DNA of 64,000 nt from Paraspadella gotoi (lineage: Eukaryota > Animalia > Chaetognatha). Positions 3,001-34,160 of this stretch are shown here, one piece after another (position 1 is the first letter of the stretch; the number at the start of each line of letters is the position of its first letter). The translations under genes and the position numbers were made by a program. The notes under the pieces are model-generated. The model was not told the origin of the DNA and did not search any database. It was given only the letters and a program-made list of their open reading frames with translations. The stretch is taken from the NCBI GenBank assembly GCA_051294375.1, contig CM119266.1:19231657-19295656 (forward strand). The letters are read 5' to 3'.

Positions 3001-6000
3001 GGATCCGTTTTTTAGACACAAAGGATTGCAGCCGCGCCGCACTCCCTGCAAGGACTGTCAGCATTGACATTGACCTGGAAACGGTGATTTCTTTGGATGC
3101 TCATTCCATCTCGGTTCCCAATATCACTGACAATTCGAGTGGCAGTTTGTCACCTGACATCGTATGCCAATGATGTCGGGATAGTCCCCGGGGCTAAAAT
3201 ATTAGAAATTTCTCGATGAACCAGTTTGGTACGACAATCCTCTCCGCTTTCGATCCCATGGCAATTTCCCTTAACAAGTCGAACCTTTTAAACCTCAGTT
3301 TTAAACTCCGTGAAAAGTGATCACTAATGATGCAATGACGTTCTCTTCGTTGGTCCTCACAGTTTTCATCGCGCAGCGACGATGGAACCGACTTCTTGTC
3401 GTCTTGCAATGAATCTTGTCGGAGACGAAACTCATTTAGCATTTTTGCAATTCACAACTGATGAGTTGAAAACCTTATTTTGATTATTATGACGATCGGA
3501 TTAAGAGCTTCCAGTTATTTTAATAACTTTTACAGCTAAATATTTTATTCACTGTTTGTCACCAATTTCGGCCCCTTATTTTTCCAGAACGCCACCCCAT
3601 TTCATCTTAAACGGCGGAATTAGGTTAATCTTTTAATAAAAATTAGGTGGAGGTAAGGTTTAAGGATTAGGTTAAGCTTAACGTTAAAAGATTAGATTAT
3701 AAATAATGGATTAGGTTTAAGGTTTAGGTTCCAAAAATTAGGGTAGGGTTATTAGATAAACAGTAATTCAGGTAAGGATTAAGATTATGTTTTTAGAATA
3801 TATTTATTTAAATCTAAAAGTGTCAAAATTAAATACGGGAATAAAGGACAGATATGAGGCGCTTTTGAAAAGAGAGCCTATAATTTTCCTGATACTTTTA
3901 GTTGGATAAATTTGTATGTCGTACTTTGTCAGATTGATTGGTGACTCAATGAATTCGTTTTTATTTTAAACCAGAGGAAGTAGTGAAGAGCTCAGGATCC
4001 TCGAGGAACTCGATTGACCTCCCTAGATGGACTTAGAGGCGGATCACATCGAAGGGGTAAACATTTTGTCTCTGTCAAACTGAGCCTAATTCCGCTGTGT
4101 GCTGCTGCATAATTTGCTGCGAGCTACCGATATTGTTGCTTAACATTCGCTTCACAATAATATTTATTCGTTTATATTTTTTTGCGGCGTATCTCTCGGC
4201 TAATTTCGGGTAATTGAAGCAATATTGTCCTTTCAACAGATGCACGGACATTATATACAATAATTATTCAAGCTTTTTTTTGGTGGAAACGGATACATAA
4301 TATATATCGAATAGCCGTATCTTTTATATATTTATAATAATGTATATGGTAGATGAAGTAAACTAACTAAGTCTAAACCAAGTCTAAACAATAAATAATT
4401 AAACAAAATCATCAAAATTACGTTTGAAGTTCAATAGCAATATAATTAACAGTTGTTTGTTTTTTTTTCAACTCACACTTCCATTTTTATTTGTTTAGTG
4501 GCATGTTCTTAGGTGCAAGCTCATAGTTTAAAATAGCAGTAAAGTCTGAAGCGATGACCGGTCCCTACAATCTATAAAAAAAAAAATTTTAACGTAATAA
4601 TTTCATACTTCAGCACAACTACTTGGTGTTTCAAACAACAGGGTCCTGTAATGTTAGTTTAAATCTAATCTGCAATCTTTTTTAAAATAAAACTAAATAT
4701 ATGGTGCCGCAGAAATTTTAGAAGTTCACAGCACGGCTCTCGTCCGGCTTTCATTTCCATTGGCCGGAGCAGATCGAGCTTCCACCCAATCCAAGTTCTC
4801 GATATGCCTTTGGAATCAGAAATGGCCAGATGGGAGCCGCGAGGACGCTTGTTCTCACATCTTTGTGCAACGTACGGCATCGTGTTTCAGCAATGATACG
4901 AAAAATTATAAAACCCTAGAAATTTTCAATGCGTTCGCGTTGATGATAGTCCTCAACTCCTTCTGCGGGTACAATGAAAATACATAATAATAAATTATAA
5001 ATATATAATAAATATGTATCAAATTTGTAAGTAGACAGTCTCTTCGGAGGCCGTGGGTTCGAATCCCACCGCTGCCAACCACAATTTAGTAAGTAGACCA
5101 GGGATTTCTGAGCGAAACCAAAGTGGATTTTATTTCTTCGAAAAATAAACGATAAACAATGACGGGTGTCAAATTTCAAGCAGAGTGAATCAATACAGAA
5201 TTCGGTTCCCGTTTTAATACAGCCCCCAAACGATCGGAGGTAAGGTAAAATTTCCGACCATCTTGTTCATTTGGCCGGTGCCAATTTTGTCTTTCAACCA
5301 ATGAGAATGTTCCATTGTATTTCCGATCCGACCGTTGATCCGATCCGTTGATCCATTCGATTTCTTGAAGTCCTGATTCCTCTGCGATGTAATCATAAAT
5401 AGTATTGTATTTTTTGATAAAAGAAAAATGAGTTCAACAATAAAATTAAATAAATATGAATAATTTGAAAATAAAATTGAATAGTCAATTGTTCATCAAA
5501 CGGCTATGTATTTGTTGTTTAGTGAAGATTACTAGGCGACTGAACTACAGTAAATTTACTTTGTACCCTCGCGTGGTTTGGTTATTTGATTTTTTTTATC
5601 TTCTTAGATAACAATTAAATTTATTTATCTAATTAATGATCATTAACATCCTCATTTCTAACCGATAAAAGTGGCCAAGAGATACATTATTAATTATTTT
5701 GACAAATGGAAAGTTTTACAGGACCCTGTTTAAAACACAGACATGTTTTCGTTCACGCGCATAGATAACACAGTTTAGAAAAGATAACACTTTATTAAGC
5801 ATTCATTTCCATTTTCGATAATAGAAGGAAAGAAATCCAGTTTTCACGCCAAGTCTCATTAGAATGCGTTGAATTAGAAACGGACTGCCAACAAACCTAG
5901 TACTCCATTGTTTAAATTTCATAATTTTTCCGTCGTTGCTCTTTTGTCCCAGTTCCGCCTGTGGCGTCCATCCAACATGAATATCGCCATATGTCGTTTT

Positions 6001-9000
6001 GGGTCATTTCGAACAAAAACAAAAAACCAAAAGAACATTAATACAACTTTATTCTTTAGAATTGCTTTCTTATTGACATCATTATACTCGGCCGTGTTGA
6101 TATTTTATTTTAATATATTATTTCAGTGTGTCCTAAGTTGAATACGTATAGAGCTTTTTTACCGACGCTTGCCTTCGAATCGAAGTTGCATCCCTTAGCT
6201 GAAAGGTTCCCTCCATTGCGCCGTTAATGTGTTCTCTTTAAACCTTTACAATGATTTTTTAAAAATCAGAAAGCCGTCGTTTTATTTTTTTTTTTAAGTG
6301 AAAAAAAAAAATAAGACTCTAATTTATAGAAAACAATATTCGTTGTTATTTTTGTGATAGTCTCTTTTTTAATCGTCCGCGTGCATGCAGTGATCATCAT
6401 ATCATCATAATGAATCATTTTTAAATAGAAACGCTTTTTTTTTTTTTCGTTTCCCGCCTCACCGAAGCCGAAAACGTTCGTCGAAGATTTTTCTCCATGA
6501 TTTTACGAACTGTTTATTTCAAAATCACCAGCATTGCGAACAATGGAAATTAAAAAAAAAAAAAATAACTATTCCTCTCAACAAACGCTTTTTAGCATTA
6601 AACCGTTAAGTATGTCATTCATAAGATTTCACATCTGACGAGAAATAAAAAATTATTTTATAACTTTGATTTCAGGCAGCAGCGGGCAAGCCCTCTCCGT
6701 GTCAGGAGAGCATTGCTATCCGGCCACGGGCGATCTTCTCATTGGACGAGACAGGATAAGTATCAGCTTCGTCCACCTGCGCGATTCGAGCGTGAGTCAA
6801 AGTCTCCTCTGCAACAGATTCAAAGTATGAGTAATAATAATTAGGCATAATGGGACTAGCCAAGTTTTTCTTACAAGAAAATTTAAAAATATTATTAACT
6901 TTTTTTATAAGCTGAATAAAAATTTGATTTTTTTTTTAGTCAAATTTTATTTGTCATTATTCATTTGAAAGCTCTACCTCTGGCCCTCTTTTGTTGCCCT
7001 CGCTCTCTGTATTTCCATGTCTCTCACCAATACATTTCTGAAATGCGTGTAATAGTTTTATTTAATGAAATAACAATATGTATATTAATATCCACCTATT
7101 TTCCTGTCCCTTGTCCTGAAGGACAACGCGCTACTGCATCGTCCTCCATCTCGAGACGAGAAAAAATGTTTTTTCATGTGCGACTCTCGGCGCCCGTTCA
7201 GATGAGCGGCCAACGAGAAAGTCACAACATTGAAACGTCGTTTCCACTTTTAACAACAGGAGGTCAGTTGTGGGCCACTCATTGTTTACTCTTTTCAACT
7301 TTAATGATTGCATAATTAAAAATAAGGAGTATAGTATCAGTATGTCCACGTCTAAGTACTTAAAGGAGTGGTCCTATTTTACCTTTTACAAATCGCAACA
7401 TTTCTTGAAAGTTTGAAACAAAGCTTATCATAAGGGAGGCCATGTACTGGGAGTGACAGATATAACTGTGAGAAAGTCCTTGATGAAAGCTTGCAGTGGT
7501 CCAGTACGTTAAATTTTGTTAGAAGGAGAGAGGGCTTAACTCAACATAATAGCCTAAGGGGCAATGAATTATCTAATTTTAGAAAATAAATGAATGAATA
7601 ATTTTAATAATTGGCTGTAGCAATTCCATCGCTTTACAAGATCGGTTCACCAATGTGTTGCGCCCGCAGTGACTTTATTTTGACGTTTATTTCTTCTTGA
7701 TATGACATGACGTGACATGACATGACACAATAACTTCTTAGCTTGTCATTTATGATACGCACTTTTTATTCTTATAGTTTAGGATTTCCTAAGGTGGCGC
7801 TAGCAGTCCCTTAATTTTGAGTTGTTTTTTTTTTCAGTCTTAAACAAATGAGCAAATGAGCAAATAGCAAGCCAAAGCAAGTAGGCGAATTATATGTATT
7901 TTTAACGTAAGTGGCAGACCGACCGGGCAAGACATAACCGACCAAACAGACCGACCGAAAAAGTGACTATAGTGTTGCTCCGCGAGTACTCGCGACTTAA
8001 CTAAAAACCAAGCAGAGGCAAATCAAATCGCGATTGCTCTTTTTTCAGAAAATCTGGTGCAATCGAAAACGGGAAGGAGTTCGTCTCGCTGCGTTTGGAC
8101 TCGAGGCCGAGTTCACTTACTCACCTCATTATGACTTTAAGACTTTTCGTCCCGCCGCATTCCTCACATCGAAAGACATAACGAATCATGGACAAACTTG
8201 GAAGATTTACAGATATTTCGCCTACAGCTGCTACGACTCTTTTTCCCAGTATGTTTTGTTCAATCGGTTTGATTAACAAGGATGTTCAATGTTAAGAAAA
8301 CCTGTTCAATGTTACATTATGAGAAACGTAAAATAATCTCTACAAGATCGAATGAATTGCGGACAATTTAATGGCAAAAAAGACCGGTAAAATGAGAGAA
8401 ACTTTTTAAAAAAATTGAGCCCATAAAAAAATATACAGGAATCTTGCTCTTTTAGAAAAGTATGAGAAAATTGGTTTAAAAGGTAGAATTAAATAATTTT
8501 TCTTTAAATTCAGGATGACTCAAAAAAAACGAGATTGACTAAAATTAATAATTTCTACATGATTGAATTTCTTTAGGCGCCATTTGTTAGTTGTTTACCC
8601 GTTGAAAGATCAAGATCAAGAATTTCAAAAATGTTTTTCATTTTATTCGAAAGTTTAACAGTTAACAGTTCTAAGTTATTGTAAATCAATAACAATCATA
8701 ACAGTAACGCAACGAATTTTCATTTATCATAAATTAATAAATAAATAAAATTTAACAACAACATGCCAATTAATTTTATAATATCGTCGACAAAAATGCT
8801 ACTCGTCAGCAATCTGTTAGCTCTTACAGCGGCTCAGGCACCCTATAATCGAGACAAAACTTAAACGTCCTGCCCTGTCTGAACGATTTGAGATACAATA
8901 TAAAAATGGGTGAAAAAGTTTTTATAGAGGGTTTTTGATTTTATATACACAGAAACAATAATTTTTAAGTCACTGCAAGGCGTTGTGGATGTTTTCAAAA

Positions 9001-10159
9001 CATTTAGTCGTTTTATGCTTGCCTTGATTAGCATACGATGAAGCATATTTGTAATATTTATTGGTTGTTTTCGGAATGTCTTATCTTCAATTAACCTGAT
9101 TAAAGCTTTTCATTACTATCCTAATTAACAACCCTTAACTTTCTTCTCTTGCAACAACAAAATTTTTTTTTTTGAGGTAAGTAAACACAAAACTTTTAAA
9201 AGAGATATAATGAATAGCTTAAATTGTTAAGCTTATATTTCTTACTTTTGACACACCTTTTTATGCATTCAGAAATTTTACATAATTCATTTATTTACTG
9301 ACAATATTGTTAATATTTTATAAAAGTAAGTTTTAATAAAAAATGAAACCAACAGTAAACTTACCATGAACCTTACCTGCCTTACTGAGCAGTTTCTTTG
9401 CTTTCAAAAAGCATATTATCAAAGAATTTCAACACGAAATTAATGTATTGTCCAAAAGCTAAGAGAGAGTATTATAAGAAATAGTTTATTCAGATTGAAA
9501 TCATTAAGAGCTAAAGAGTAATGATTTTTTCAATTTTGTCTCGATATAGTGGTCCCACCCCTGTAATTTCGAGAAAATTTACCCGAAAAAGTTCTTATCA
9601 ATCTTTAAGTTGGATGGCAAAGATATTTTCTTTTAAATCAACAAAACAAACATTTGGAAAGGACGGAACATTAATCTATTTTTATTTCTGATTAATGGCG
9701 TAGCTTGATTGTATTTGCCAAAGATTGAGAAAACAAAGATCACATAATAAAAATCGCTTTATATTTTCAAACCCGACGCTTTCTAAACGACTTTTAATTC
9801 TTTTTTCTCTCCTCTCGAATAAAATAATTACAATATAATAATAATAAAGGGTAAATTTGACATTAACAAAGTAGAATTTTGGCTTCTTTTCAACCAGCTA
9901 AACCCCAACCTAGCCCCCCCACACCCCACCTAAACCCTAGTCGGTGAATATAAAATTAAGCCAATAAGATATCTACTAATTTTAACAATTTTCCAACACC
10001 CCTTTGGTCTCAACAGACATCCCACGGACCCACGGTCAATCGGCGAAAGTTGTTCTGCGAGTCTTCGCTATCTCTACGTCCTCCAATCTACCGACGGCGA
10101 AGTCAGCTTTCAGAGTTTGAGTCCGAATATGAAATCGATACCCATACGCCGAAAACGTC
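1..10159 (+). repeat. Indel-rich direct copy of ~12598-22476 (5' laminin exons), probable assembly artefact or unpolished alternate haplotype
   Basis: Colinear over 10 kb, including introns. Differences are mostly 1-nt indels that frameshift the exons. Ends mid-exon at a 25-N gap (10160-10184). Confidence 0.9.
5036..5081 (+). pseudogene. tRNA-Leu 3'-half fragment (variable arm, T arm, acceptor strand, apparent CCA)
   Basis: CAGTCTCTTCGGAGG(C)CGTGGGTTCGAATCCCACCGCTGCCA(A)CCA matches the 3' half of metazoan tRNA-Leu(AAG/TAG). No D arm or anticodon upstream. Confidence 0.8.
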
Positions 10160-10184
10160 NNNNNNNNNNNNNNNNNNNNNNNNN
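10160..10184. other. Assembly gap (25 N). Other gaps: 29281-29290 and 29514-29523 (10 N), 43085-43109 and 44145-44169 (25 N)
   Basis: Runs of N in the sequence. Confidence 0.99.
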
Positions 10185-10443
10185 TTTTTTTTCGCTTCGT
10201 GATGAACGGGAAAATTTTTTTTTCTTTTCTCTCATTCTAAATGTGAAAAACCGAGATTATGTTTAGTTCTCTTATCGTTTTGGGGTCGAAGCTTAATGGT
10301 GTTGACGCGTGGGACGACGACCTTTAAAGAATTTGATGCCGAGGGTCAAACTTGCTTAATGGTCATTCTTATTCTATATTTCGTTGGAACAAACTCATCT
10401 GACAATACAATATTTCGATTTCCTTGGCGTGGGCAATATTTTA

Positions 10444-10543
<100 letters not shown>

Positions 10544-11801
10544 CCCTGTAAGTTTAATATCTTTCGCCTTCTCTCGCCGCGTTCGACGTCCCGCGGGGTT
10601 TTTTCAAATCTCTCCGATTATTCTTTTTTTTTTTTAATTATTTTCTTGACGTTTCCGAATAAATTCGACTCCTCCCCCCCGCCCCCCCAATTCTACCATC
10701 ACCATCGCGCAAACATGTGTCGCGCGCAATAGTTCCTTCTGATGCCTTTTGTTTGAACCATTTATTTCTAATCTTAACGAACTTTCTCTCTATCTTTATC
10801 TCTATATCTATCACTCTCTCTCTCTCTCTCTCCTTGCCCTTCATCTCTCTCCCCTCTCTCGTCTGTCCCTCTCCATGGAAAAACGACGAAATGTCGCGCT
10901 TCCGACTCTACAATAAACTTGTTGAGTAAAGATAATTCACATTTTAGAGAAAAGAAAAAACAGGCAAGTGTCACACAAAATCTTTCTTCATTTTTGAAGA
11001 AAAAGACAAAGAAAACAAAGAAAGAAAGAAAGAAAGAAAGAAAAAGAAAGAAAGAAAGAAAGAAAGAAAGAAAAGAACAAAGAAAGAAAGCAAGCAAGCA
11101 AGCAAAGCAAGCAGTGAAAAGAAAGACTCTTAAACGCCGCGACTCTCATAGTCTTTTTTGTTTTTTTGCCTTTCCCTCCTTAGGACATTTAGTAAAACTC
11201 AGCGCGTAGGGTACTACGACACGGGAGCGGCGGGGTGACGCCACCACTCCAGTCCCTCGTCGTCTCCCCATCGCCGCCCTTCACTCCCCGCTTCACCCCC
11301 CGCCACTCGCCCGTGGCGGGCAGCGCGAGGAGTAGGAGGAGGCTAGGAGGAGATTATGGGAGGAGAGAGAGAAGGAGATAGAGAGGGAGATAGGAGGAGG
11401 AGGAGGGAGAGAGAGAGGATGCTGAGAGAGAGGGAGACGCTCATTAGGCAGAGAGAGAGGGAAAGCCAGAGCGGAGAGAGAGAGAAGGGAGAGAGAGAGG
11501 CAAAGGACGGCGAGGCAAAGGCTGGAGAGAGAGAGGCTTGGAGAGAGAGACGAGCGGAGAGGAGGAAAGGTGGAAGTAGAAATAGGTACCTATGTATTTC
11601 ACATTAATTTACATTATTCTCTCCCGAAAAAAAAAAAAATCGTCGGAATGATTTTAAGAACGGCACGTTTAAAATCGACTGCTCTGCATGGCTTTCAATC
11701 AAATTTGAAATTATAAAAAAATTTTTACCGATAACGATGGCTGTTTTATACTCTATCCTATCAATTCCATGTATCGATTCGCCATGAATAACATAAATTT
11801 A

Positions 11802-11892
11802 ATGAAATCTATTAGGCCTGCTATCGATCGATTGAAATGTTTCGTCGTTCTCCGTTACGCGGCAGTTTTGACGACGTCACTGCAGATTAGCT
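11802..11892 (+). CDS. Candidate first coding exon (signal peptide) of the laminin beta gene
   Basis: ATG-open frame [30 protein letters not shown] with a basic n-region and a moderately hydrophobic core. Ends phase 1 at a weak donor (GTATAT) and joins 12358 in frame (T+GT = Cys). In-frame ATGs also at 11769 and 11784. Confidence 0.5.
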
Positions 11893-12239
11893 GTATATAT
11901 ACATACATACATTACATAGTGTATAACCAACTCATCTTTTACCTTTAACTTCTATTAAAACTGACCGAGTATCAGATTCTTCTAACCTTCGTTTTCTTTT
12001 CTTATAAGTGAAGACGAAGCAACCGCCTCTTTTCTCTTTTCACTTTTTCTATGTATTTTCGTTTGTATTATTTTCCATTTATCATTTAAATTGATTAGGT
12101 TTTGTCCTATTTCCACTTTTTCATCGCAAGAGAAAATCACTCGGAAGAAAAATAATGAAGAGATCGGAGAATTATTACCTGAGTGAGAGAAAGCCACATT
12201 TAAAAAGCTTTTCGCGAAAGCTATAAGCTATAGGGTTTT

Positions 12240-12317
<78 letters not shown>

Positions 12318-15300
12318 CAGTTTGTCCGCTTTCCCCCCGCATTGTCCTGACGCTTAGGTTCTTCCCGCGCTTCCCATCATTCCATCCATGTGCATGCGAA
12401 TTCGCATGACGTTACCAACGAGACCAATGACCCCGCCAACGACCCCTCCAATGACCCGCGCAGACGACCCCGCCAACGACCCCGCCAAAGACGTCATTGC
12501 AGCAAAAAGCGCGGCGGAAGAAAACAGAAGCCCGAACGTGATAGAGGATTTGTTGGAACCGGCGTTGATTTTGTTGGACGATCGAACGTCGAATATCGAA
12601 GTCGAAAAACGAGAAGAGAATCAAATAACAAAACCGAATCTTCCCCAGCGACTACATCACGAAAAACATCGTCAGAAATCGTCGAACGGATTTCGGCAAA
12701 ACAGAGGCGAAAATGCGATAAATCCGGATGCTGTTTCCGAGTCTCGCTCTGACAACGAAATGGAATTTTCGCGTTCAGAGTCTTCTTTATATTCTCCATC
12801 GTATTCCTCGTCATCATCATCATCTTCCTCTTCTTCGATCAAACATCTTCTTCGGCTTCGAGAGGCGGAACTCTCCTCATCCTCCTCGGGTCGTCTTCCT
12901 CCAGCGCCCAAACTGCCGGCGCCACGAATCCCCGAGACCGCGGCGAATCCGACGCCAACCGACTCGGCCGCCAAATACTTCAGCTACGTGGGCGGTCACG
13001 GGGGTCGTTATCGGGGTCGCTTCGATGACAACTATTTCGATTATACCATAGAAGAGGTTCCTCTACCGGAACTCAACTCCTTGTCCGGATTCGAGACGGA
13101 CTATCCCGACTTTTCGCCAAATCCCATCGACGCCGTCGAATCGGACGTCGGCACAAAGATATCTTCTTTCGATTCGGCCGACCCGAATCCCAGGGCGACC
13201 GGGGAGTTTCAACAAGGATCGCCTCTTTCACAAACGGGTTCCAAGGGCGGGTCGCCCAATATTGAGAGAGGCTTCGACGTTGAGTTGCCAAACTACGTAC
13301 ATCCGGAGCTTACTCTGCCGATCGATCAACCAGGATTCGATTACGAAGACTATTACGATTCTTACTACGACAAAAATTCACATTATTTCACAGGTTATAC
13401 ATGAGAAAAAGATAATTTCGATAAAGTAAAAAAAATTTCATCTGTTTACATTGAAGAGCGTACTTCGGAGAGTACTAGCGGAGCAACTCTATAGCTAAGT
13501 CTCTCTTCGGCTGGTCAGTCTGTCGGTATGTCCGTCTGTTTGGTTTTTTTTGCTTAAAACTTGAGTAATAAACCATAAGATGCTTCTTGTGGATATGTTT
13601 CTCACTTGTGTAGTCACGTGATCATCAGAAAATGCATATGGTCTTTTCATACAATTGAAACATTCTGTGAAATATTATACCAAATCATTTATAGGGAAGC
13701 CAGGTACTCTGGAAGTGAATAAACGAGACTGTGAGAGAGTCTCGATTGAAAGCTTGCAGGGACCTGCTATGTCATTATCTTGTAAGAGTGATGGAGATCT
13801 TAAACCACCAAAGCCTGTCCAAAGTCAGGGGCAAGATAGCTTATTAATTAAATGAATGAATAATTTTTTAATATTTTTATACGAATTCTAGTTCTAGCGG
13901 CGCAACGTTTTGAATTCGTTTATTACATAAATAACTTGTTACATCATATCATTTATGTCATTATAACGAAATAAGTTTAACTCAATAATTCGATAAATGA
14001 ATTAGCATTTAATACGTTTTCGTCCTTCATCCCTTCCGTCTTTCGCATCGCAAGAAGTGGAATCTGACTTTGACGATTTTAGCCCCGAGTCCAACGAGCT
14101 TCCTTTCAAACTCCTCGTGACTCCGACCGACAATTCGGCGTCAATCGACGGGCCTTCGCCAATCGAAGGCGGCCTTGGGATCGACGAGAGCTCCACCGAC
14201 TCTCCAAAGTTTCCCGAAACCGCCGCCACGTCGACGACTTTCGCCGCAACGACACCGCCTCCGCCGCCATTGCCGCATCCGCCCGGTCGCGGAATCGTCG
14301 GCAAAAGTAACAACGACGACGACGACGTTGAATTCGACAATGAAGACGACGTAGATGTCGCTTCGAAGTTAAAGCCACCCGCGGTTATCCAACCTGGAAA
14401 CGAAGAGGAACAAATCATCGACGGTAAAACCGAAATAAAAACTTCTGCGTTTTAAAAAGGAAAGAAAACAAGTGTCGTCTGCTTACTAAATAAAACAAAA
14501 CAATAAACGTTCGTGAAGTGAAGTCGTAGCAAGAAGATGTGACTCCGAATTCACCCGCCTTTTTTTTTTGTTTCACCACTAATTTCATTTTTTCACTCGT
14601 TGCTTTGACCATTGATGGCATTAATGGATAATTAACTCCGGTGTTCCTCCTATTAACTATGACATCTTCTTTTATCTTTCGCTGTTTTAGATTAATTTTT
14701 TTCCCTTTCAAATGCAGAGATGAATGCTTAATTTGCTAAATGTCAAACGCTAATACAAAATCCGTGATTGCGCTTTTTAGACGCAGAATTTTAATTTAAT
14801 TCTCCTTTCTTTTCAAATTGTTTTATACTAAAGTGACTTGCCGTGATTGTGACTAAATAATAACTGGAGATAATAACAAAGCTATAGATCGTTGGAATAC
14901 AGTCGTTTTAACACATGAACAATAAAAACAAATATTTTCTACAAAATAATTTCTTTCCCTAACGCGGATCTTTTGTCGATTATTTGAGTCATGTGATACC
15001 AACCTAATTTTATTTTTAATATCTATAACTGAATTATCGGATTTTGGCCATGTAAGTGATGTTATCATCACTGATAGAACGATTAGAACTTAAAAACGGC
15101 TTTTTTGATACCCTTTTCGATTGTGCGTAGAATTAGCCAAATATGTAAGATATCTTTATATTAAGAAAAGCTTCTATGATATAGAAATGACATCGGCTTA
15201 ATTTTGTTTTTTTAGGAGGATCTACTCAACGTTTATCCAATTCAATTCCTGATCCCGAATATGGAAGATACGACGCTAACATACCAGATCCTCGGGGCCG

Positions 15301-18300
15301 GTATCCTCAGCCCGATCCCCGCGGGTCTTACCCTCAGCCCGATTCCAGGGGGCCTTACCCTCAGCCCGATCGCCAGGAGCCATACCCACTTCCAGATCAG
15401 AACGGATATCCCTCACCAGGTAATAAGACAGTGTCGACGATAGCGTGGATAAATTGATGAATTACAACAAAAATTTTGCGTTGTTAAATAGAAGTAAAGA
15501 GGTATTTTTGCCCCCCCAATTTGCAGTTTAAAACTATACGTAAAATCAATCTAAAATCAAATGTAGATTTTTAGAATTTTACTCAAAAATTTTACATTAT
15601 TTCACATCAGTTTAAAAAGTAATTACATCGATATAGGAATCAGATGAGTAATCGCGAGCAGCCCTTAATTTCATAGTTTTTATTTTCGACGACCGGGATT
15701 CGTTTTTTTTAGACAAAGGAGTTGCAGCCGGCGTCGCACCTCCCTGCAAGGACTGTAGCATTGACATTGACCTCGGAAACGGTGATTTCTTTTGGATGCT
15801 CATTCCATCTCGTTCCCAATATCACAGACAATTCGAGTGGCAGTTTTGTCACCGACATCGTGATGCCAATGATGTCGGTGATAGTCGGCGCTAAAAACTA
15901 TTTAGAAATTTCTCGATTAACCATTTGTAGCCGACAATCCTCTCCGCTTTCGATCCCATGGCATTTCCCTTAACAAGTCGAACCTTTTAACTCGTTTTAA
16001 CTCCGTGAAAGTGATTCACTAATGATGCATGACGTTCTCTTCGTTGGTCCTCACAGTTTTTCATCGCGAGCGACGATGGAACCGACTTCTTCGTCGTCTT
16101 GCAATTGATTCTTGTCGTGAGACGAAAACTCATTTAGCATTTTTGACAATTCACAACTGATTGAGTTGAAACCTTATTTGATTATTATGACGATCTGGAT
16201 TAAGAGCTTCAGTTATTTTAATAACTTTACAGCTAAATATTTTATTCACTTGTTTGTCTACCAATTTCGGCCTTATTTTTCCAGAACGCCCCATTTCATC
16301 TTAAACGCGGAATTAGGTTAATCTTTTAATAAAATATTAGGTTGGAGGTTAGGTTTAAGGATTAGGTTAAGCATTAACGTTAAAGATTAGATTATAAATA
16401 ATGGATTAGGGTTTAAGGTTAGGGTTCAAAATTAGGTAAGGGTTATAGATTAAAGTTAATTCAGGTTAAGGATTAGATTATGGTTTTTAGAATATATTTA
16501 TTTTAAATATAAAAGTGTCAAATTGAATTACGGGATAAAGGAACAGATATGAGGCGCTTTTGGAAAAGAGAGCCTAAATTTTCTGATACTTTTAGTTGGA
16601 TAATTGTATGTCGGTACTTTGTACAGATTGATTGGTGACTCAATGAATTCGTTTTTATTTTAAACCAGGAGGAAGTAGTAGAGCTCAGGATCCTCGAGGA
16701 ACTCGATTGACCTCCTCTAGATGGACTTATGGAGGGGATCTACATCGAAGGGGTACAACATTTTGTCTCTTGTCAAACTGAGCCTATTCGCTTGTGTGGC
16801 TGCTGCATATTTGCTGCGATGCTACCGATATTGTTGCTTAACATTCGCTTCACAATAATACTTTATTTTTCGTTATATTTTATTTGCGGCGTATCTCTCG
16901 CTATTTCGGGAATTTGAAGCATATTGTCTTTCAACAGATGGCACGGACATTAGTTATACAATAATTATTCAAGCTTTTTTTTTTTGGTGAAACGGATACA
17001 TAATATATATCGAATAGCCGTATCTTTTATATAATTATAATAATGTATATGTAGATGAAAGTAAACTAACTAGTCTAAACCAAGTCTAAACAATAAATAA
17101 TAAACAAAATCATCAAATTTCCGTTTGAAGTTCATAGCATATAATTACAGTTTGTTTGTTTTTTTTTCAACTCACATTCATTTTTATTTGTTTAGTGGCC
17201 ATGTATATTAGGTGCAAGCTCATAGTTTAAAATAGCAGTAAAGTCTGAAGCGATGACCGTCCTACAGATCTATAAAAAAAAAATTTTAACGTAATAATTT
17301 CATACTCACAAACTACTTGGTGTTTCAACAACAGGGTCCTGTAATGTTAGTTTAAATCTTAATCTGCAATCTTTTTAAAATAAAACTAAATATAGTGCCG
17401 CAGAAGTTTTTAGAGTTCACCACGCCTCTCGTCCGGCTTTCATTCCCATTGGCGCTGGAGGCAGATCGAGCTCCACCCAATCTCAAGTTTCTCGATATGC
17501 CTTTGGAATCAGGAAATGGCCAGATGGGCCGCGAGGACGCTTGTTCTCAGCATCTTGTGCAACGTACGGCATCGTGTTTCACAATGATACAAAAATTATA
17601 ACAACCCTAGAAATTTTCAAATGGCGTTCGCGTTGATGATAGTCCTTCCAACTCCTTCTGCGGGTACAATGAAATATATATAATAATATAATAAATATAT
17701 ATTTATATATTTATCTTTATACAATTATATATTAAATATAATAATTATATAATATGTAATAATAATATGTATTGTATTTTTGATAAAAGAAAAAAAATGA
17801 GTTCAACAATAAAATTAAATAAATATGAATAAATTTGAAAATAAAATTGAATAGTCAATTGTTCATCAAACGGGCTATGTGATTTGTTTTGGTTAGTGAA
17901 GATTACTAGCGACTGAACTACAGTAAATTTACTTTGTACTCCTCGTCGTGGTTTTGGTTATTTGATTTTTTTTTATCTTCTTAGATACAATTAATTTATT
18001 TATCTTAATTATGATCATTAACATCCTCATTTCTAACCGATAAAGTGGCAAGAGATACATTATTAATTATTTTTGACAAATGGTAAAGTGATTTACAGGA
18101 CCCTGTTTAAAACACAGACATGTTTTTTCGTTCACGTAGATAACACAGTTTAGAAAAGATAACACTTTTATTAAGCATTCATTTCATTTCGAATAATAGA
18201 AAGGAATGAAATCCAGTTTTCACCCAAGTCTCATTTAGAATCGTTGAATTAGAAACGGACTCCAACAAACCTTAGTTGCTCCATTGTTTAAATTCATATT

Positions 18301-21300
18301 TTCCGTCGTTGCTCTTTTGCTCCCAGTTCCGCCTGGTGGCGTCATCCAACATGAATATCGCCCATATGTCGTTTTGGGTAAAATTCGAACAAAAACAAAA
18401 ACCAAAAAGAACATTAATACAACTTTATCTTAGAATTGCTTTCTTATTTGACATCATTATACTCTGCCGTGTTGATATTTTTATTTTAATATTTAATTTC
18501 AGTGTGTCCTAAGTTGATACGTATAGGCTTTTTTTACCGACGCTTGCTTCGAATCGTAGTTGCATCCCTTAGCTGAAAGGTTCCTCCCATGCGCCGTTAA
18601 TGTTTCTCTTTAAACCTTTACATGATTTTTTTTTCTTATTTTAAAAATCAGAAAGCCGTCGTTTTATTTTTTTTTTTTTAAGTGAAAAAAAAAATAAGAC
18701 TCTAATTTATAGAAAACAATATTCGTTGTTATTTTGTGATAGTCTCTTTTATCGTCCGCGTGCATGCAGTGATCATCATATCATCATAATGATCATTTTA
18801 AATAGAAACGCTTTTTTTTTCGTTTCCGCCTCCCGAAAGCCGAAAACGTTCGTCGAAGATTTTTCTCCATGATTTTACAGAAATGTTTTAATTTCAAATC
18901 CACCAGCATTGCGACATGGAAATTAAAAAAAAAATAAACACATATTCCTCTCACAAAAACGCTTTTAGCATTAACCGTTAATATGTCATTCATAAGATTT
19001 CACTCTTGACGAGAAATAAAAATGGTTTTTATTAACTTTGATTTCAGGCAGCAGCGGGCAACCCTCTCCGTGTCAGGAGAGCAGTTGCTATCCGGCCACG
19101 GGCGATCTTCTCATTGGACGACAGGATAAGTTATCAGCTTCGTCCACCTGCGGACTTCAAGGTGAGTCAAAGTCTCTCTGCAACAGATTCAAAGTATGAG
19201 TAATTATAATTAGGCATAATGGGACTAGCCAAGTTTTCTTACAAGAAAATTTAAAATATTATTAACTGAATAAAAATTTAGATTTTTTTTTTAGTCAATT
19301 TTATTTGTCATTATTCATTTGTGGCTCTACCCTGGCCCTCTTTGTTGCCCTCGCCTCTCTGTATTCCATGTCTTCTCACCATACATTTTCTGATGCGGTA
19401 TAGTTTGATTTATGAAATAACAATATGTATATTAATATCCCCTATTTTCTTGTCCTTGTCCTGAAGGACCAACGCGCTACTGCATCGTCTCCCATCTCGA
19501 GGACGAGAAAAAATGTTTCATGTGCGACTCTCGGCGCCCGTTTCAGATGAGCGCCAACGAGGAAAGTCACAACATTGAAAACGTCGTTTCCACTTTTAAC
19601 AACAGGAGGTCAGTTGTGGGCCACTCATTGTTTACTCTTTTCAACTTTAATGATTTGAATAATTACAAAATAAGGAGTATAGTATAGTATTCCACGATCT
19701 AATACTTAAGGGAGTGGTCCTATTTTACCTCTTTTACAATCGCAACATTCCTTGAAAGTTGAAACAAAGCTTTATCAATAAGGGAGCCATGTACTGGGAG
19801 TGAACAGACTAGACTGTGAGAAAGTCTTGATTGAAAGCTTGCAGTGTCCAGCTACGTTATAATTTGTTAGAAGGAGAGAGGCCTTAACTCACCATAGCCT
19901 AAGGGGCATGATATCTAATTTTAGAAAAATAAATGAATGAATAATTTTAATATTGGCTGTAGCAATTCCATCGCTTTACAAGATCGGTTCATCCAATGTG
20001 TTGCGCCGCAGTGACTTTATTTTGACGTTTATTTCTCTTGATATGACATGACGTGACATGACATGACTACAAGAACTTTCTTCGCTGTGTATTTATGATA
20101 CGCACTTTTATTCTTTATAGTTTTAGGATTTCCTAAAGGTGGCGCTAGCAGTCCCTTAGATTTGAGTTTTTTTTTTTCAGTCTTAACAAATGAGCAAATG
20201 AGCAAATGAGCAAGCAAGCAAGTAGGCGAATTATATGTATTTTTAACGTAAGTGGGACAGACCGACGGGCAGACATACCGACCAACAGACCGACCGAAAA
20301 GTGACTTATAGTGTTGCTCCAAGCAGAGGCAAATCAATCCGATCTGCTCTTTTTTTCAGAAAATCCTGGTGGCAATCGGAAAACGGGAAGGAGTTCGTCT
20401 CGCTGCGTTTGGACCTCGAGGCCGAGTTTCACTTTACTCACCTCATTATGACTTTTAAGACTTTTCGTCCCGCCGCCTTCCTCATCGAAAGATCATACGA
20501 TCACGGACAAACTTGGAAGATCTACAGATACTTCGCCTACAGCTGCTACGACTCTTTTCCCAGTATGTCTTTGTTCAATCGGTTGATTAACGAGATTGTT
20601 CAATGTTAAGAAAACCTGTTCAATGTTACATTATGAGAAACGTAACATATCTCTAACAAGATCGAATGAATTGCGGACAATTTAATGGCAAAAAGACGGT
20701 AAAATGAGAGAAACTTTTAAAAAAATTGAGCCATAAAAAATATACAGGGAAATCTTGCTCTTTTAGAAAGTATGAGAAAATTGGTTTAAAAGGTAAGAAT
20801 TAATATTTTTTTTTTAAATTCAGGATGAAACTAAAAAAACGAGATGTGATAAAAAATTAATAATTTCTACATGATTGAATTTCTTTAGGCGGCCAATATG
20901 TTTAGTTGTTTACCGATTGAAAGCTAAGATCAAGAAAATTTCGAAAATGTTTTTCATTTTATTCGAAGTTTAACAGTTTAACAGTTCTAAGTTACTTGTA
21001 AATCAATAACAATCAATAACAGTAACGCAAACGAATTTCATTTATCATATAATTAATAAATAAATAAATTTAAACAACAAACAATGCCAATTAATTTATA
21101 ATATCGTCGAACAAAATGCTATCGTCAGCATTGTCTAGTCTTACAGGGGTGGCACCCTATATCGAGACAAAACTTAACGTCCTGCCCTGTCTGAACGATT
21201 TGAGATACAATAATAAAATGGGTGGAAAAAGTTTTTTCTGGGTTTTTGATTTATATACACTGAAACAAAATAATTTTTTAAGTCACTGCAAGGCGTTGTG

Positions 21301-24300
21301 GATGTTTTCAAAACATTTAGTCGTTTTTATGCTTGCGCATTGTATTGCATACGATGAAAGCCATATTTGTTAATATTTTTATTGGTTGTTTCGGAATGTC
21401 TTATCTTCAATTAACCTGATTTAAAGCTTTTCATTACTATCCTAATTAAACCTATTGAATTTTTTTTGAGGTAAGTAAAACAAAATTTTAAAAAGATTAT
21501 AATGAATATGCTTAAATTGTCAAATACTTTATATATTTCTTACCTTTTTGACACCTTTATTATGCATTCAGAAATTTTACATAATTCATTTAATTATCTG
21601 ACAATATCGTTAATAAATATTTTTATAAAAGTAAGTTTTAATAAAAATTAAACCATAACAGTAACTTACCTGAACCTTACCTGCTTACTGAGCAGTTGCC
21701 TTTGCTTCATTAAAAAAAGCATATTATCAAAGAATTTCAACACAATTAATGTATTGTCTAAAAGCTAAGAGAGAGTATTATACGAATATTTATTCAGATT
21801 TGAAAAATCATTAAGAGCTAAGAGTAATGATTTTTTAAAATTTTGTCTCGATATATGGTCCCACCCCTGTATTTCGAGAAAATTTTACCGACAAAAGTTC
21901 TATCAATCTTTAAGTTGGATGGCAAAGATATTTTCTTTTAATCAACGAGAACAAACATTGGGAAGGACGGGAAACATTAATCGTATTTTTATCTGATTAA
22001 TGGCGTAGACTTGATGTATTGCCAGATTGAGAAAACAAAGATTCACATAATAAAACTCGCTTTATATTTCAAACCCGACGCTTTCTAAAACGACTTTAAT
22101 TCTTTTTTCGCTCTCTCGAATTAAAATAATTACAATAATAATAATAATAAAGGGTTAAATTTGACATTAACAAAGTAGAATTTTGGCTTCTTTTCAACCA
22201 ACGCTAAACCACCCCTAACCCTAGCCCCCCCCCACCCCACCTAAACCCTAGTCGGTGAATATAAAATTAAGCCAATAAGGATATTCTACTAATTTTAACA
22301 ATTTTCCAACACCCCCTTTGTCTCAACAGACATCCCCACGGGACCGCAACGGTCGATCGGCGAAGTTGTCTGCGAGTCTCGCTACTCTGACGTCGCTCCA
22401 TCTACCGACGGCGAAGTCATCTTCAGAGTTTTGAGTCCGAATATCGAAATCGATGACCCATACGCCGAAAACGTCCAAGGTCACTTTCCATTTTTATTTT
22501 AACGTTTTGGATTGTTTTTTTTTAAGAATGTTTTATTTCTGTTCTTTTATCTCGAAATTTAATTTTAATTTTAATATTTTAAACTTTTAATTTAATGCTT
22601 AATCATTCTAATCCTCAACTCTAACTTAACTCTTATCCTAAATTTTTACCCCTAACCTCTGACCATAAACCTTGGTCCTTAATCTAAATTCTGAATTTAA
22701 AAAAGTTAGCCTAAATCCCAATATAAAATGAAATGGGCCGTTCTGGGAAAATAACGCCCTACAATTCTGCAAAACCAGAATTACTGCGAATGACGAACTT
22801 GCGCATCAACTTCACAAAACTGCACACACTTGGCGACGATCTGTTGGACGCGAGGGCAGAAATCGATGAGAAGTACTATTACGCTGTGTACGATATGGTT
22901 GTCCGAGGGTCGTGCTCGTGTTACGGGCATGCGTCCAGATGCATACCCTTGGAGGATCAGCAAGTTCACAGGAGAGACATGGTGAGTGGGATGGTGAGTG
23001 GGAGAAAAAGTGGTACAAGATTTTAAAAGAAAATGAAAATTATAATCATTGAATATTTGCTTTTCTTAATTTTTTTTTTTTTGTACTTTGTGCCGCAAAA
23101 TAGGCTTTTAGTTTTAATGTTTGAAACAGCCAAAGTGACAAAAGTTTTTTTGAAAGCTGAAAGTCCATTGGCGTTAAACTAACTCTTTATTTCTCCTTCA
23201 AAACGCTTTGTATTCCCACCTCATCCAACGCATGCAGCCGGAGCAGCATCATCTTCGTAAAGTAATCCCAACATCTACATACCGTCACAACCTTACTCGC
23301 TAGTCAATAAAAAACGTCTTAAAAATAGAATATACAAATTTGTGGTTTTCCAATTGACTCTTTAAAAGACCAAGTGTTTAATACTTATAACCGGTTTTAA
23401 AATAACATCGGAAAAAAGGGGAAATATCCGCTCGTCTCAAATTATTTGTAATTCTTTTTTCCAAGAACTTCAAATACATTGGAGACATTTTGTTTGGACA
23501 CTACCAAAAGGCCTAGACGTATGGTTTCGCACAGCTGTCGCACTAGAACTCTTTTCACTTAATAAGCAAAACTTTAGTCAGTCTCTTCCTTGCTGTTTTA
23601 TCTCGTCGACTGTCGTGCATGAATGTCCCGTCTCCTAGTTAAATAAGCTTTCAACGAAACATTGTTTTAACTTTAAATTTTTTCTCTGTCGCCCTCTTAG
23701 GTTTACGGAAAGTGCGATTGTCAACACAACACGAAAGGACTCAACTGTGACGAATGCGAAGACTTCTACAATGACCTACCGTGGAGACCGGCGATCGGAA
23801 GCCTCACTCATGCGTGTCAACGATGCGAGTGCAACGGACACGCCACGCGATGCCACTTCGATCTGGCGGTGAGAATGACCAAGTTTTTTTTTGGGGGGGG
23901 GAGATTTTATTCGATAAAGGAGCTGAACAATTGAACATTGTCGTTCCAGAAATAAGGAAGTAACCAAATTTCCGTTTTCAGGTGTACGTGGCTTCTGGCA
24001 ACGTATCGGGCGGCGTCTGTGACGATTGCGCTCACAACACGATGGGTCGTAATTGTCAAGAATGTCGACCGGGTTTTTTCCAACAAGAGGGAAGGGCGGT
24101 GCGTGACCCAAACGTCTGCCAACCCTGCGACTGTGATCCCGTCGGATCGGAGAACAACGGAGAATGTGAGAGTCGCACCGATCCCGCGAACAACCTCGTC
24201 GCTGGCAGGTTTGATGTACTTTTGTTTTGTACTTTTTTCTAATAATAATAATTGTAAAAATAATAATGATAATAATCTTTTTTTTTTGTTTCTTCGTTTT

Positions 24301-25320
24301 TTTTTTCAATAATGATTATAATAAAACTGAACTCGTTGGTTTCCAGGTGCATCTGCCGGAGAAATGTCGACGGACGGCGGTGCGACAGATGCAAGGCCGG
24401 ATTCTGGAATCGCAATGTGAACAACCCGGAAGGATGTGAAAGATGCGGATGCAATACGCTCGGTACCGTCAATAACCGCGGCTGCGACGAAATCACGGGA
24501 GAATGCACTTGCAAGCGATTCGTCGTCGGTCGCAGCTGCGATCAATGTCAGGTTAGGTTACATTTGGTTAGGATAGGGTTAGGGTAGGGTTTCAGGAAGA
24601 ATATAAAGCAATTAGTCTTCGTTAATTGCCTTTTCAGCCGTAGTTAATGAATGCCGTGGTTTTTCCCGTACACGCTTCAAAGTTTTTTTTAGCAGTTTAA
24701 AAAAAAATGATGGATATCGCAATTTCTCGAAGTACTTTTTTTTTTCTATGTTTCTTAGTCTTCTTTCTTTATTTTAGACAGTCAAGGTCTTTGCCATTCC
24801 TGTTATTCCAAAGGCGCCAATTTCAATGATATTCGGATTTTGTCGGTTTTCTTGGGTCGCAGTTGTTTTTGTTTTTTTCCTTCGAGGAAATACTCTAAAA
24901 CATTTATCATAGACAAACCTGGCATCCCCTTTATCTTCACAAAAATGAACAGAGCTCATTGAACAATAAACATAATACTTATGTTTATACACACATTTAA
25001 TTCTGCAAATATTACTGAAGCTATGAATACTTTTTTCTCTTTTTTTTTTTTTTTTGCAGCCAAATTTCTACGGTTTAAGCGACAGCGAGGAGGGATGCAA
25101 ACCCTGCGAATGTGACTCAGGTTTGTTTTTTTAAATTTTTTTGTGAAAATATCACTTTATTGCCAATCTCTATATCCGGATTAATAATAATAATAATAAT
25201 AGTAATAATAATAATAATAATAATAAAATAGTAATAATTTTTGTCTGGTTTAAACACAACAACGTTATAGACTTTGCATCTGAGCCTTTTTGACTGTTAT
25301 TATTATTATTATTTTTATTA

Positions 25321-25351
<31 letters not shown>

Positions 25352-28300
25352 ATTATTATTATTATTAACCGTCTGCTGGTTAAGTGTGATGGTGTCGGCA
25401 TAAACAAAACACGCCAGTTGTCGGGAGATACGTCACACCCCAGGCATCACACATGTCTCCCAGTTGCCACGATATATTAATAATTTGACTCGACTCAGGA
25501 GGTTCGTACGACAACAGTTGCGATCCGATCAACGGTCAATGCCGCTGTCGTCCGCACATGAACGGACGACGCTGCGATCGTCCTGAGTCAGGCTTCTACT
25601 GCGTCCTTCTGGATCACTACAGATACGAGGTACGCCTTTTTGAACGTACTGGCGGACTTTATAGGAAAATCCTGTCTCATTGGTGATTATTATATCATGA
25701 GGAACTCTTCTTCCGTCAGGCCGAGTACGCGAGGGGGGAAGGACAGACGAAGGTGATCGTCCGCGCGCCTCATCCCGGACGCCCCACCACCTGGACGGGT
25801 GAGGGCTTCATGGAAGTCCACGAGGCGGACAAGATTGATTTTGAGATTTCCAATCTCGGCGCCTCCATGGAATACGACATCGTCATCAGATACGAGCCTC
25901 AGGTGCATTTAATTGGTACAACGAATGTAATAATTATCCAATTCATCATCCATTCATTTAATAAGTAAGCTATCTTTCCCTTGACTTTGGACAGGCTATT
26001 GTGGTTTAAGGCCTCCATCACTCTTACAAGATAATGGCAAAGCAAGTCCCTGCAAGCTTTCTATCAGGAAACTGTTTGTCTCGTTTATTCACTTCCAGAG
26101 TACCTGTCTTTCCTATCGTGTTATTTGTCGAAAATATTTCACCCTTTGTTAGTTTTCTCATGAAGTAATCCTTATAACATGTTATAAAATACTTGCTTTA
26201 ATGTCATCATCTTAGCCATGGATGACTTAGAAAAAAAGTCGAAATAAATGGCAAATAATTTTTTAAAAAAATTGTTTCTTATGCTCTGATATTCGATAGT
26301 GAAAATTAGTATTTATTTATTTATGTTGTAAAATATCTGTTTAGATGCCGGAACGGTGGGACGACGTACGTATTAAAATAACCCGACCAGGTGCAGTGGA
26401 CCAAACGGGTCCTTGCGCCAACGTTGTTCCTCAGGATGACCTTAAAGCGGCGTCTCTGCCTCCCGGTGAGAAAAAAATTCAAAAGAACAACAAGTTAATT
26501 TAATGTGAACAAAATTAGGTATCTATAATTTCGTAGCACGATTCGAGTAAAGTTCGATTTTTTTTCTTTACGATTATCCAAATAACAATATCAATGTTTT
26601 TGTTTTCATTGTTTTATATATTTGTTTGTTTTTATTTTTGTTTCAATTTAATAATTGTTACATTTTGCTTCGTGGTCGTTGTTAATGCGCCAAAAGCGTG
26701 TTGCGATGATAGCAGCCCAGTTGGTAAGGCACGATTTTCTGTTGAACACTTTTAAATGCACAACGATTTGAAAATGAAATATAATCCAGAGGGAAAGTTC
26801 TCGGATTAAATCTAATATCGGGCGTAGAATATTTATGTAATTTTCATTGAAGGGACCACAAATAATTAGAATGTTCTTTTTTTTCTCATTCTTGCCGCAA
26901 TTGCACCTTGTGATGCACTTTTCCAGGAAAAGGAGAACCGGGATGTTACTGTGGTATCCAATTTTTCACGTAGTGTTTTTAACTTTCTTTTTCATGTAAA
27001 TTGATTTTATGCTTTTTTAACGTTAACTTGCAAAATTATTTGTTCCTGCTAAAATTGCTGTTAGTGAAATTTCTTTGCTTTTCGTTCGATTTCCCAAATT
27101 TCGCTTTTTTTAAAAAAAATTTTCTCCTAAATTCTATCTCAACAATGTTCTTCTAATCGGCATAAAGTCATTTTGCGGTTAAATATTTTTCTTGCTATTT
27201 AAAATGTAAAAACAATAATAAAACCCGGTTTCGTTAACTATTGACAATACGATAACGATAAACTAACAAATAAATCGTTGATAAAATTGATCTCACTAAA
27301 TCGTACGCTTCATTCTCAATAGTTTCTCGATTTTAAGTAGATAACCATGAGATTGATTCTTACGATTTCGTTCTTGATAAAACCTACTTTCGCTCTCCTC
27401 CATTGACCACGCTTAACACTATTTTTAAATCATTAAATTTTAATACTAGTTTTATATTCACTTTTCAATTACTACCAGTTTTTTCACACAGGAACACAAA
27501 GTGTTTTTTATAGAAGGGTTTCCCCAAGTGATACATAACCTTTTAATCAATGCGATACTGTAACAAAGTTAAGGACAAAGTTAAAAACGAAGGCAAAGCC
27601 CTATTACAAAAAAATTATAAAAATGACTGAAAGTAAAGTTTGCACTTAATGCGACGTTACGTTCTCGTAAAACTCGCAAAATTTTGAAATTTAGCATGTC
27701 GAATTTTTCGTTCATTTTTCAGTTTATTCAGATGTAGTGTGTTTTCGTTAAAACTACTCTGTATAACTCAGCCCAGGATTTTATCCTGACAAGATTTACG
27801 CTTCAAGCTCGATATCTTTTTCACTTAAAAAGGATTTGATGTCAAATCTCGTCAGTAACGCTTTGATTTCTGCCAGGGGCTGTCATTTCTGAGAAAAGGC
27901 TTACTCTTTAGCGAAATCCTCGTCACATTTTAACCTTTTACTTTTTCTCTTCTCCCTCTTCGCGGTCATCCGCCTTTTATCACGCCCTCTGCCCGGCTCG
28001 GCGGAACAAATCCCAATTCCCTATTCCTTCCTCAAACCCTCAACAGGAAACAGGTACTACGTGGTACCGGGACCGGTCTGCCTTGAAAAGGGAGTCAGAT
28101 ATACGATCGCGTTCGAATTTCCATCGTACAAAAGCGGACAAGTGACTCCGGAGGCACAGATGCTCATCGACTCGGTGAGCGGACAAAGGCGGAGGCTAAA
28201 TAGTTGCCAAATGTTTGGAATCAAAACGAACTTACTTCGTTTGTGATCTATCCGAATTATTAACTTTACTTTTTCCCTCGTTTCTTCTTTCTTTGTATAG

Positions 28301-34104: not shown

Positions 34105-34160
<56 letters not shown>

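What the first reader, a model, noticed from the sequence alone, without database searches (positions are those of the whole stretch)
11802..19161. Laminin beta chain with a ~560-aa disordered N-terminal extension built from four symmetric phase-1 exons
Seen: the first LN exon (19048) has a phase-1 acceptor and no signal peptide. Upstream on the same strand are four GT-AG-bounded exons of 345, 123, 68 and 28 codons, all phase 1-1 and open apart from one 1-nt frameshift near 12457. A phase-1 ATG exon with a hydrophobic stretch (11802-11892) precedes them. The noisy copy at 1-10159 shows the same blocks in the same order. Known: in characterised laminin beta chains (human LAMB1/2, Drosophila LanB1, C. 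elegans LAM-1) the LN domain follows the signal peptide within a few tens of residues and drives alpha-beta-gamma network polymerisation. Inference: this lineage has added a large acidic, Ser/Thr/Pro/Tyr-rich, probably disordered module to the polymerising tip. Because every exon is symmetric, any subset can be skipped, giving a tunable series from canonical laminin to the fully extended form.
Basis: partly seen in the sequence, partly recalled or inferred. Interest (0 to 1): 0.85.

Follow-up and report, generated by a model that had tools for sequence, protein, structure and literature searches.

The report
Laminin beta with optional spliced tail
In an unidentified non-arthropod invertebrate, the laminin beta gene has six extra exons in front of its network-forming tip, four of them seen spliced together in RNA, and they likely give the protein an optional, predicted-flexible tail of up to about 720 residues, similar in layout to tails already listed in database models of crabs and horseshoe crabs.

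Summary
RNA contigs from one run join a missed exon A (ending 11585) to D (15216-15419), then to a missed 69-nt exon E (15713-15781), then to F (16669-). No junction of B or C was seen, the F-to-LN junction was not tested, and the signal exon was not located. The copy at 1-10159 has a raw-read error profile. The layout is not unique: arthropod database models, mostly RefSeq, already list optional low-complexity inserts of about 50-580 aa at the same position. This gene falls outside arthropods, and its exons show no similarity to those inserts. Sampled molluscs, nemerteans, a brachiopod and an annelid lack an insert. Eight paper searches found no description. Best reading: a likely independent, splice-tuned flexible tail beside the polymer node.

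The parts
10296..10547 (+). Region that may hold the unlocated signal-peptide exon (noisy, (CT)n-rich); candidate only
   Evidence: Best donor upstream of exon A is after 10547 (score 6.1); a hydrophobic ATG stretch lies at 10359-10428 with a weak donor. The RNA lay skipped the repeat at 10439-10648. The exon could also lie in or beyond the N gap at 10160-10184.
11184..11585 (+). Exon A (missed by reader): internal Pro/Ser- then Arg/Gly-rich cassette, about 135 codons; window sequence noisy; frame inferred
   Evidence: One 443-nt contig (depth 5.1) covers 11194-11362 and joins 11583 to 15215. Acceptor at 11184 scores 7.1, 98th percentile. The 3' end reads open into exon D's frame; the RNA-listed differences give 48 open codons and then a stop in a zone where differences are not listed, so the full open frame is not shown.
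11802..11892 (+).
   Evidence: Donor score 0.3; no joint at 11892. One contig of depth 2.7 covers 11654-11817 without a joint.
12358..13393 (+). Exon B: 345-codon acidic cassette, phase 1-1, with one 1-nt shift near 12457 that is likely an assembly error in a 12-nt repeat
   Evidence: Open in 4 of 2000 shuffles; two relatives, E 3.9e-19 and 1.6e-10. Covered by three unjoined contigs of depth 2.1-3.4; no junction seen.
13030..13392 (+). Conserved acidic/Tyr/Pro block at the end of exon B (about 120 aa), a candidate binding motif
   Evidence: 43% identity to P0432 and 35% to P0433, both ending at the same F-[TS]-G position. Local pLDDT 59-66 at residues 201-230 in an otherwise unfolded model. 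No Pfam or Atlas hit.
14055..14423 (+). Exon C: 123-codon acidic, Ser/Thr/Pro-rich cassette, phase 1-1; the least supported exon
   Evidence: GC 0.57; donor and acceptor at the 94th and 91st percentile. The one listed contig (depth 2.6) reads through its donor into the intron.
15216..15419 (+). Exon D: 68 codons of Pro/Tyr-rich PQPD repeats
   Evidence: Contig of depth 12.6 spans 15215-15419, with joints on both sides.
15713..15781 (+). Exon E (missed by reader): 23 codons with a Cys pair, phase 1-1
   Evidence: GT..AG joints 15419/15713 and 15781/16669 in one contig of depth 10.2.
16669..16752 (+). Exon F: 28 codons, Arg-rich, ending in a dibasic pair; donor not tested
   Evidence: Acceptor in an RNA joint. 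Donor score 2.4. Read-through would stop nine codons after the donor.
19048..19161 (+). First LN-domain exon, phase-1 acceptor, beginning with a small-x-small-Gln cleavage-like site
   Evidence: Profile match from position 2; acceptor score 8.9.
19467..38886 (+). Rest of the laminin beta gene: LN, LE repeats, L4/LF domain, coiled coil (31 further exons)
   Evidence: Collinear match to profile positions 34-1738; 31 GT-AG introns that keep the frame.
1..10159 (+). Artefactual noisy second copy of 12598-22475
   Evidence: 89-90% identity dominated by indels, equal in exons and introns.

Best explanation
This is an intact laminin beta gene with six phase-1 exons upstream of its first LN exon; four are spliced together in RNA, and they likely join the LN exon to give an optional, predicted-disordered N-terminal tail that would sit beside the polymer node. 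Shown: A-D-E-F splicing with B and C skipped, and conservation of exon B as protein. Shown in other animals: the LN exon opens with a phase-1 intron inside the end of the signal peptide. Inferred: an unlocated signal exon splices to any cassette or straight to the LN exon, giving chains from canonical, through about +254 aa (the RNA path), to about +720 aa. D and F start with the same small-x-small-Gln site as the LN exon, so each could complete the signal peptide itself. Inferred function: the tail stays attached next to the N-terminal region that forms part of the node interface. It would hinder or slow node assembly by bulk and charge, and would present the conserved exon-B block to a partner, so that splicing tunes the laminin network by tissue or stage. 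It likely arose independently of the arthropod inserts at the same intron.
For: GT-AG joints A/D, D/E and E/F. Exon B relatives end at the same position. No exon-like signal exon was found in the scanned parts of the F-LN intron; the one candidate has GC 0.24. Six genomic loci of other animals (L005, L009, L010, L013, L016, L017, among the 14 of 22 loci where the LN start was found) have a pyrimidine-rich phase-1 acceptor just before the cleavage-like site. The small-x-small-Gln site starts D, F and the LN exon, occurs in none of the 8-aa windows of the cassette bodies, and a looser form is in 30 of 31 short-leader chains (motif chosen after seeing the data). Arthropod models show the same layout as within-species series, e.g. 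Oratosquilla leaders of 182-606 aa and Penaeus japonicus 35-144 aa. In the human node structure the N-terminal region is part of one interface set (PMC9852560, passages).
Against: The F/LN junction was not observed, and F's donor is weak (2.4; the RNA-confirmed D donor also scores only 3.6). All joints come from single contigs of one run. B and C have no junction, are covered at the same depth (2.1-3.4) as intronic pieces (2.6-2.8), and C's contig reads through its donor. Exon A's frame is not shown open throughout. B, C and E lack the Gln motif. The genomic context of the two exon-B relatives is unknown, so their link to laminin is unshown. Nothing here tests the function.
Confidence: 0.6

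Rival explanations
1. The gene structure is as above, but the extension is a removable pro-piece. It would be cut at basic residues by a proprotein convertase, keeping laminin from polymerising until it is delivered.
For: Exon F ends in a dibasic pair just before the LN exon, and exon A's 3' end is Arg-rich. Several arthropod inserts also end in Arg runs. Mammalian laminins undergo maturation cleavages in their short arms (PMC11260871, passages). Convertase site preferences are recalled, not tested.
Against: The end of F lacks the Arg at P4 of the usual furin site (recalled consensus). Forms that skip F would lose that site. Short arthropod leaders without inserts are Arg-rich too.
Confidence: 0.15
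2. Exons A-F belong to a separate upstream gene that ends at the stop just after exon F, and the laminin has its own short signal exon.
For: The F/LN junction is unobserved. F's donor is weak and read-through gives a stop after nine codons, with AATAAA at 17092, 17099 and 17379. The 31 short-leader chains examined have only 28-46 aa before the LN motif.
Against: No exon-like signal exon in the scanned parts of the F-LN intron (one short stretch was not scanned). All upstream exons share phase 1 with the LN acceptor, and D and F begin like the LN exon. Arthropods show the same layout within one gene. AATAAA is common in AT-rich introns.
Confidence: 0.1
3. Only A, D, E and F (about 254 aa) are used. 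B and C are not spliced into laminin mRNA, or B belongs to a separate nested or alternatively started transcript, possibly from the reader's ATG exon.
For: No junction for B or C; background-level depth; read-through at C's donor; a contig overlaps the 5' side of the ATG exon. B's acceptor is weak (2.1).
Against: B is conserved as protein up to its phase-1 donor position in two relatives and is open beyond chance. The ATG exon's donor scores 0.3.
Confidence: 0.15

Closest known systems
Canonical laminin beta chains (human LAMB1/LAMB2, Drosophila LanB1, Lingula XP_013395107.1 at 61% identity)
   Same: Full LN-LE-L4/LF-LE-coiled-coil order; phase-1 intron and cleavage-like site at the start of the LN exon.
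   Different: They have 28-46 aa before the LN motif in 31 of 31 short-leader non-arthropod chains examined. This gene has six extra exons there.
Arthropod laminin beta long isoforms in RefSeq/GenBank (Oratosquilla XP_076033711.1, Homarus XP_042225500.1, Penaeus XP_047469022.1, Tachypleus XP_076350667.1, Folsomia XP_035713187.1, Nymphon KAG1659411.1)
   Same: Optional, Cys-poor, low-complexity inserts between signal peptide and LN, with several lengths per species and up to about 580 aa.
   Different: No significant similarity to exons B, C or D among 145 leaders. Their inserts are Ser/Thr/Gly/Arg-rich, this one acidic and Pro-rich. 28 of 36 carry an H-[PS]-[LFM] motif that exons B, C and D do not match significantly. 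This gene lies outside the arthropod clade.
Laminin alpha3A/alpha3B splice variants, LaNt alpha31 and netrin-4
   Same: Known ways to tune laminin polymerisation at the LN tip by splicing or competition (PMC11260871, passages).
   Different: They remove the LN domain or supply a competing one; none adds an optional disordered tail to the beta LN.

Membership tests
Laminin beta chain | Beta-type LN domain followed by LE repeats, one L4/LF domain, more LE repeats and a coiled coil | tested here: met
   Collinear match over profile positions 2-1738 of a laminin beta alignment; 52-61% identity to named beta chains.
Laminin beta chain | Intact reading frame from LN to C-terminus | tested here: met
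   31 GT-AG introns keep the frame without stops at the junctions.
Laminin beta chain | N-terminal signal peptide | tested here: inconclusive
Laminin beta chain | Polymerises with alpha and gamma LN domains | not testable with these tools
   Needs biochemistry.
Arthropod-type optional pre-LN insert | Cassette exons between signal exon and LN exon, with skipping | tested here: inconclusive
   Skipping of B and C is shown; the link to the LN exon and to a signal exon is inferred.
Arthropod-type optional pre-LN insert | Sequence homology or the H-[PS]-[LFM] motif near the LN | tested here: not met
   No hit reached the inclusion threshold among 145 leaders; motif HMM scores matched or exceeded by 13-175 of 300 shuffles.
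Arthropod-type optional pre-LN insert | Host is an arthropod | tested here: not met
   The arthropod clade (support 100) excludes the window in both trees.

The most novel reading that the evidence does not exclude
The intron inside the laminin beta signal-peptide end is a hot spot where two animal lineages independently built splice-controlled disordered tails of up to 600-700 aa on the polymerising tip. These tails would let invertebrates with few laminin genes tune network assembly or stiffness by splicing instead of gene duplication, with the conserved exon-B block (and the arthropod HP motif) acting as undescribed binding or auto-inhibitory elements.
Probability: 0.3. Interest if true: 0.8.

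Novelty: new variant of a known kind. Interest (0 to 1): 0.5.

Why it matters
Invertebrate laminin beta is treated as a nearly invariant chain whose LN domain starts right after the signal peptide. If optional tails of hundreds of residues sit next to a node interface in arthropods and, separately, in this lineage, then splicing is an overlooked way to diversify basement membranes. It is directly testable in beetles, locusts or shrimp, whose long and short isoforms are already in public databases.

Tried and rejected
No whole genome was held. Absence of cover at 16807-17500 and 10300-11022 is not used as evidence. These fit 30-nt overlaps of unseen splice paths (depth about 10 and 5.7) but fit unspliced intron equally well, so they are not used. 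Codon-usage test: no signal for any cassette (z -1.2 to 1.1), against z 3.8 for an LN exon that was in the training set. Pfam: no hit for B, C or D. ESM Atlas: no usable hit for the B block, and one 0.77 bacterial hit for D, ignored. JGI metagenome scan with the exon-B alignment: none. The LN scan gave 22 loci, none with a tblastn match to B, C, D or the two relatives. Homology of the window's exons to arthropod inserts or their HP motif: rejected. A fold of a beetle insert plus LN was uninformative, since the LN itself folded poorly (pLDDT 46.1). My first guess that the host is a crustacean was overturned by the trees. The spiralian grouping had support 97 but was unresolved; priapulids, chaetognaths and several other phyla had no named representative in the trees. 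The idea that minus-strand intron ORFs are a retrotransposon remnant got no Pfam support. The first tree run timed out. No complex prediction was run.
Full report
Observation. Their GC is 0.51-0.57 against 0.30-0.36 for the introns. Only B is open beyond chance (4 of 2000 shuffles; C 517, D 995, F 1116), and codon usage did not discriminate. Downstream, one complete laminin beta gene runs from 19048 to about 38886, with 31 frame-keeping introns. The copy at 1-10159 matches 12598-22475 at 89-90%. Its differences are mostly indels, spread equally over exons and introns, so it is best read as an uncollapsed raw read and adds no support.

RNA. One public run holds half the sampled words of exon B; that it is RNA is a guess in the record, but its contigs show GT-AG joints. 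Laid on 10300-17500, one contig of depth 5.1 joins 11583 to 15215, which corresponds to a donor after 11585 and the acceptor at 15216. Another, of depth 10.2, joins 15419 to 15713 and 15781 to 16669. Only 8 of 740 pieces and 6 of 179 loose ends were displayed. The LN exon lay outside the stretch, so the F/LN junction is untested.

First exon. The training range is 4.0-12.0, though the RNA-confirmed D donor scores only 3.6, so the range is no hard cut-off. Exon A has a strong acceptor at 11184 (98th percentile) and no hydrophobic stretch in the parts that can be read, so it is likely internal. Its 3' end reads open into D's frame. With the differences listed by the RNA it reads open for 48 codons, then meets a stop in a zone where differences are not listed; its full frame is therefore inferred. 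The signal exon was not found. Candidates lie in noisy sequence at 10296-10547 or in the gap at 10160-10184.

Exon B is a real coding exon. A phmmer search of 1.84 billion representatives gave 2 hits, both unnamed (E 3.9e-19 and 1.6e-10). They share its last ~120 aa at 43% and 35% identity and lose similarity at the F-[TS]-G that marks the phase-1 donor. AlphaFold2 on these three sequences gave no fold (pLDDT 45.6, pTM 0.14), with slightly higher confidence (59-66) in the conserved block; the alignment is shallow. This fits a disordered chain with a conserved binding motif. The relatives' genomic context could not be obtained.

Why the exons likely belong to the laminin. Six genomic loci of other animals, among the 14 of 22 where the LN start was found, have a pyrimidine-rich phase-1 acceptor just before the cleavage-like site that precedes the LN (transcript-like loci L001 and L004 also gave such AG matches, so the filter is loose). 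The intron therefore appears to sit inside the end of the signal peptide. The window's LN exon, D and F all open with small-x-small-Gln, a motif absent from all 8-aa windows of the cassette bodies. A looser form occurs in 30 of 31 short-leader chains; B, C and E lack it, and the motif was chosen after seeing the data. That set of 31 was hand-picked and leaves out Lottia, one Dreissena model, a partial JGI chain and three Trichinella models with 80-213-aa leaders that look mis-started. No exon-like signal exon was found in the scanned parts of the F-LN intron. Against this, F's donor scores 2.4, and read-through would end in a stop after nine codons. The RNA path adds about 254 aa; all six exons add about 720 aa.

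Comparison. Of 190 fetched chains of 1000 aa or more with a locatable LN motif, 19 have leaders of 175 aa or more. Two are evident mis-models, and the other 17 are arthropod (one unnamed, near-identical to Penaeus) (the set is biased by a crustacean query). Isoform series occur within species, for example Oratosquilla 182-606 aa, Panulirus 93-425, Tachypleus 45-300, Folsomia 62 or 242, and Penaeus japonicus 35-144. These are database models whose junctions I did not check. In 28 of 36 hand-picked arthropod long forms an H-[PS]-[LFM] motif lies 24-62 aa before the LN motif. The window's exons match neither those leaders nor that motif, and they are more acidic and Pro-rich. Two FastTree trees place the gene outside arthropods. 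It grouped with spiralians at support 97 in one and was unresolved near their base in the other. Sampled molluscs, nemerteans, Lingula and Owenia are all about 1760 aa with short leaders. An independent origin is thus likely but not proven, since low-complexity sequence loses homology fast.

Mechanism. In the cryo-EM node, one set of interfaces uses the N-terminal region and an LE1 loop of the neighbouring subunit (PMC9852560, passages). Clustered LN missense mutations in Drosophila LanB1 disturb cardiac matrix (PMC4068974, passages). Known tuning at the tip works by loss of or competition for LN domains (PMC11260871, passages). I infer that an optional charged tail next to this interface would hinder or slow node formation and present the exon-B block to a partner. 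None of this was tested. The rivals are a cleaved pro-piece, a separate upstream gene, and non-use of B and C.

Literature. Eight searches returned no listing that describes such an insert; I saw only listings and abstract starts. Passages of a silkworm laminin beta paper describe an intronless paralogue, not an insert (PMC4515764). The library lacks most subscription journals, and no supplements were read. Earlier scan notes held nothing on this.

Verdict. A real, probably optional extension on an ordinary laminin beta chain, with a corrected exon set and one junction still to be shown. It appears undescribed in the papers searched, occurs here in another lineage with unrelated sequence, and is easy to test. 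Interest 0.5.

Noticed in passing
Arthropod proteins P0059, P0085, P0170, P0186, P0240, P0022 and others: A conserved acidic...H-[PS]-[LFM] motif lies 24-62 aa before the LN motif in the optional insert of 28 of 36 chosen long isoforms, from beetles to horseshoe crabs; several insect inserts also carry RGD. No paper describing it was found.
   Followed up: partly
window 15712-15897, 16054-16173, 17355-17546, 18275-18424 (minus strand): Protein-like open frames of 40-64 aa inside the laminin introns, one antisense to exon E; possibly a nested gene or a decayed element. Only a weak sub-threshold Pfam match (RHD_dimer, E 0.077) for the last.
   Followed up: partly
window 30896-31345 (minus strand): A Cdc42-like first coding exon (Ras family, E 2.9e-13; the name Cdc42 is recalled from the sequence) lies in the laminin intron 28527-32354, near two N gaps; nested gene or mis-join.
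   Followed up: partly
window 33494-41596 versus 54290-45791, and 42022-45773: Noisy inverted duplicate (77-89% identity, many gaps) of the 3' end of the laminin gene and its flank; probably another raw-read or palindrome artefact.
   Followed up: no
window 56428-60510 (+): A 1361-codon open frame with no Pfam hit at cut-off.
   Followed up: partly
window 13650-13875, 19735-19954, 25945-26116: A short interspersed repeat in three introns with very high depth in the RNA run.
   Followed up: no
window 63372-63662 (minus strand): Open frame ending in a C2H2 zinc-finger-like motif, below Pfam cut-off.
   Followed up: no
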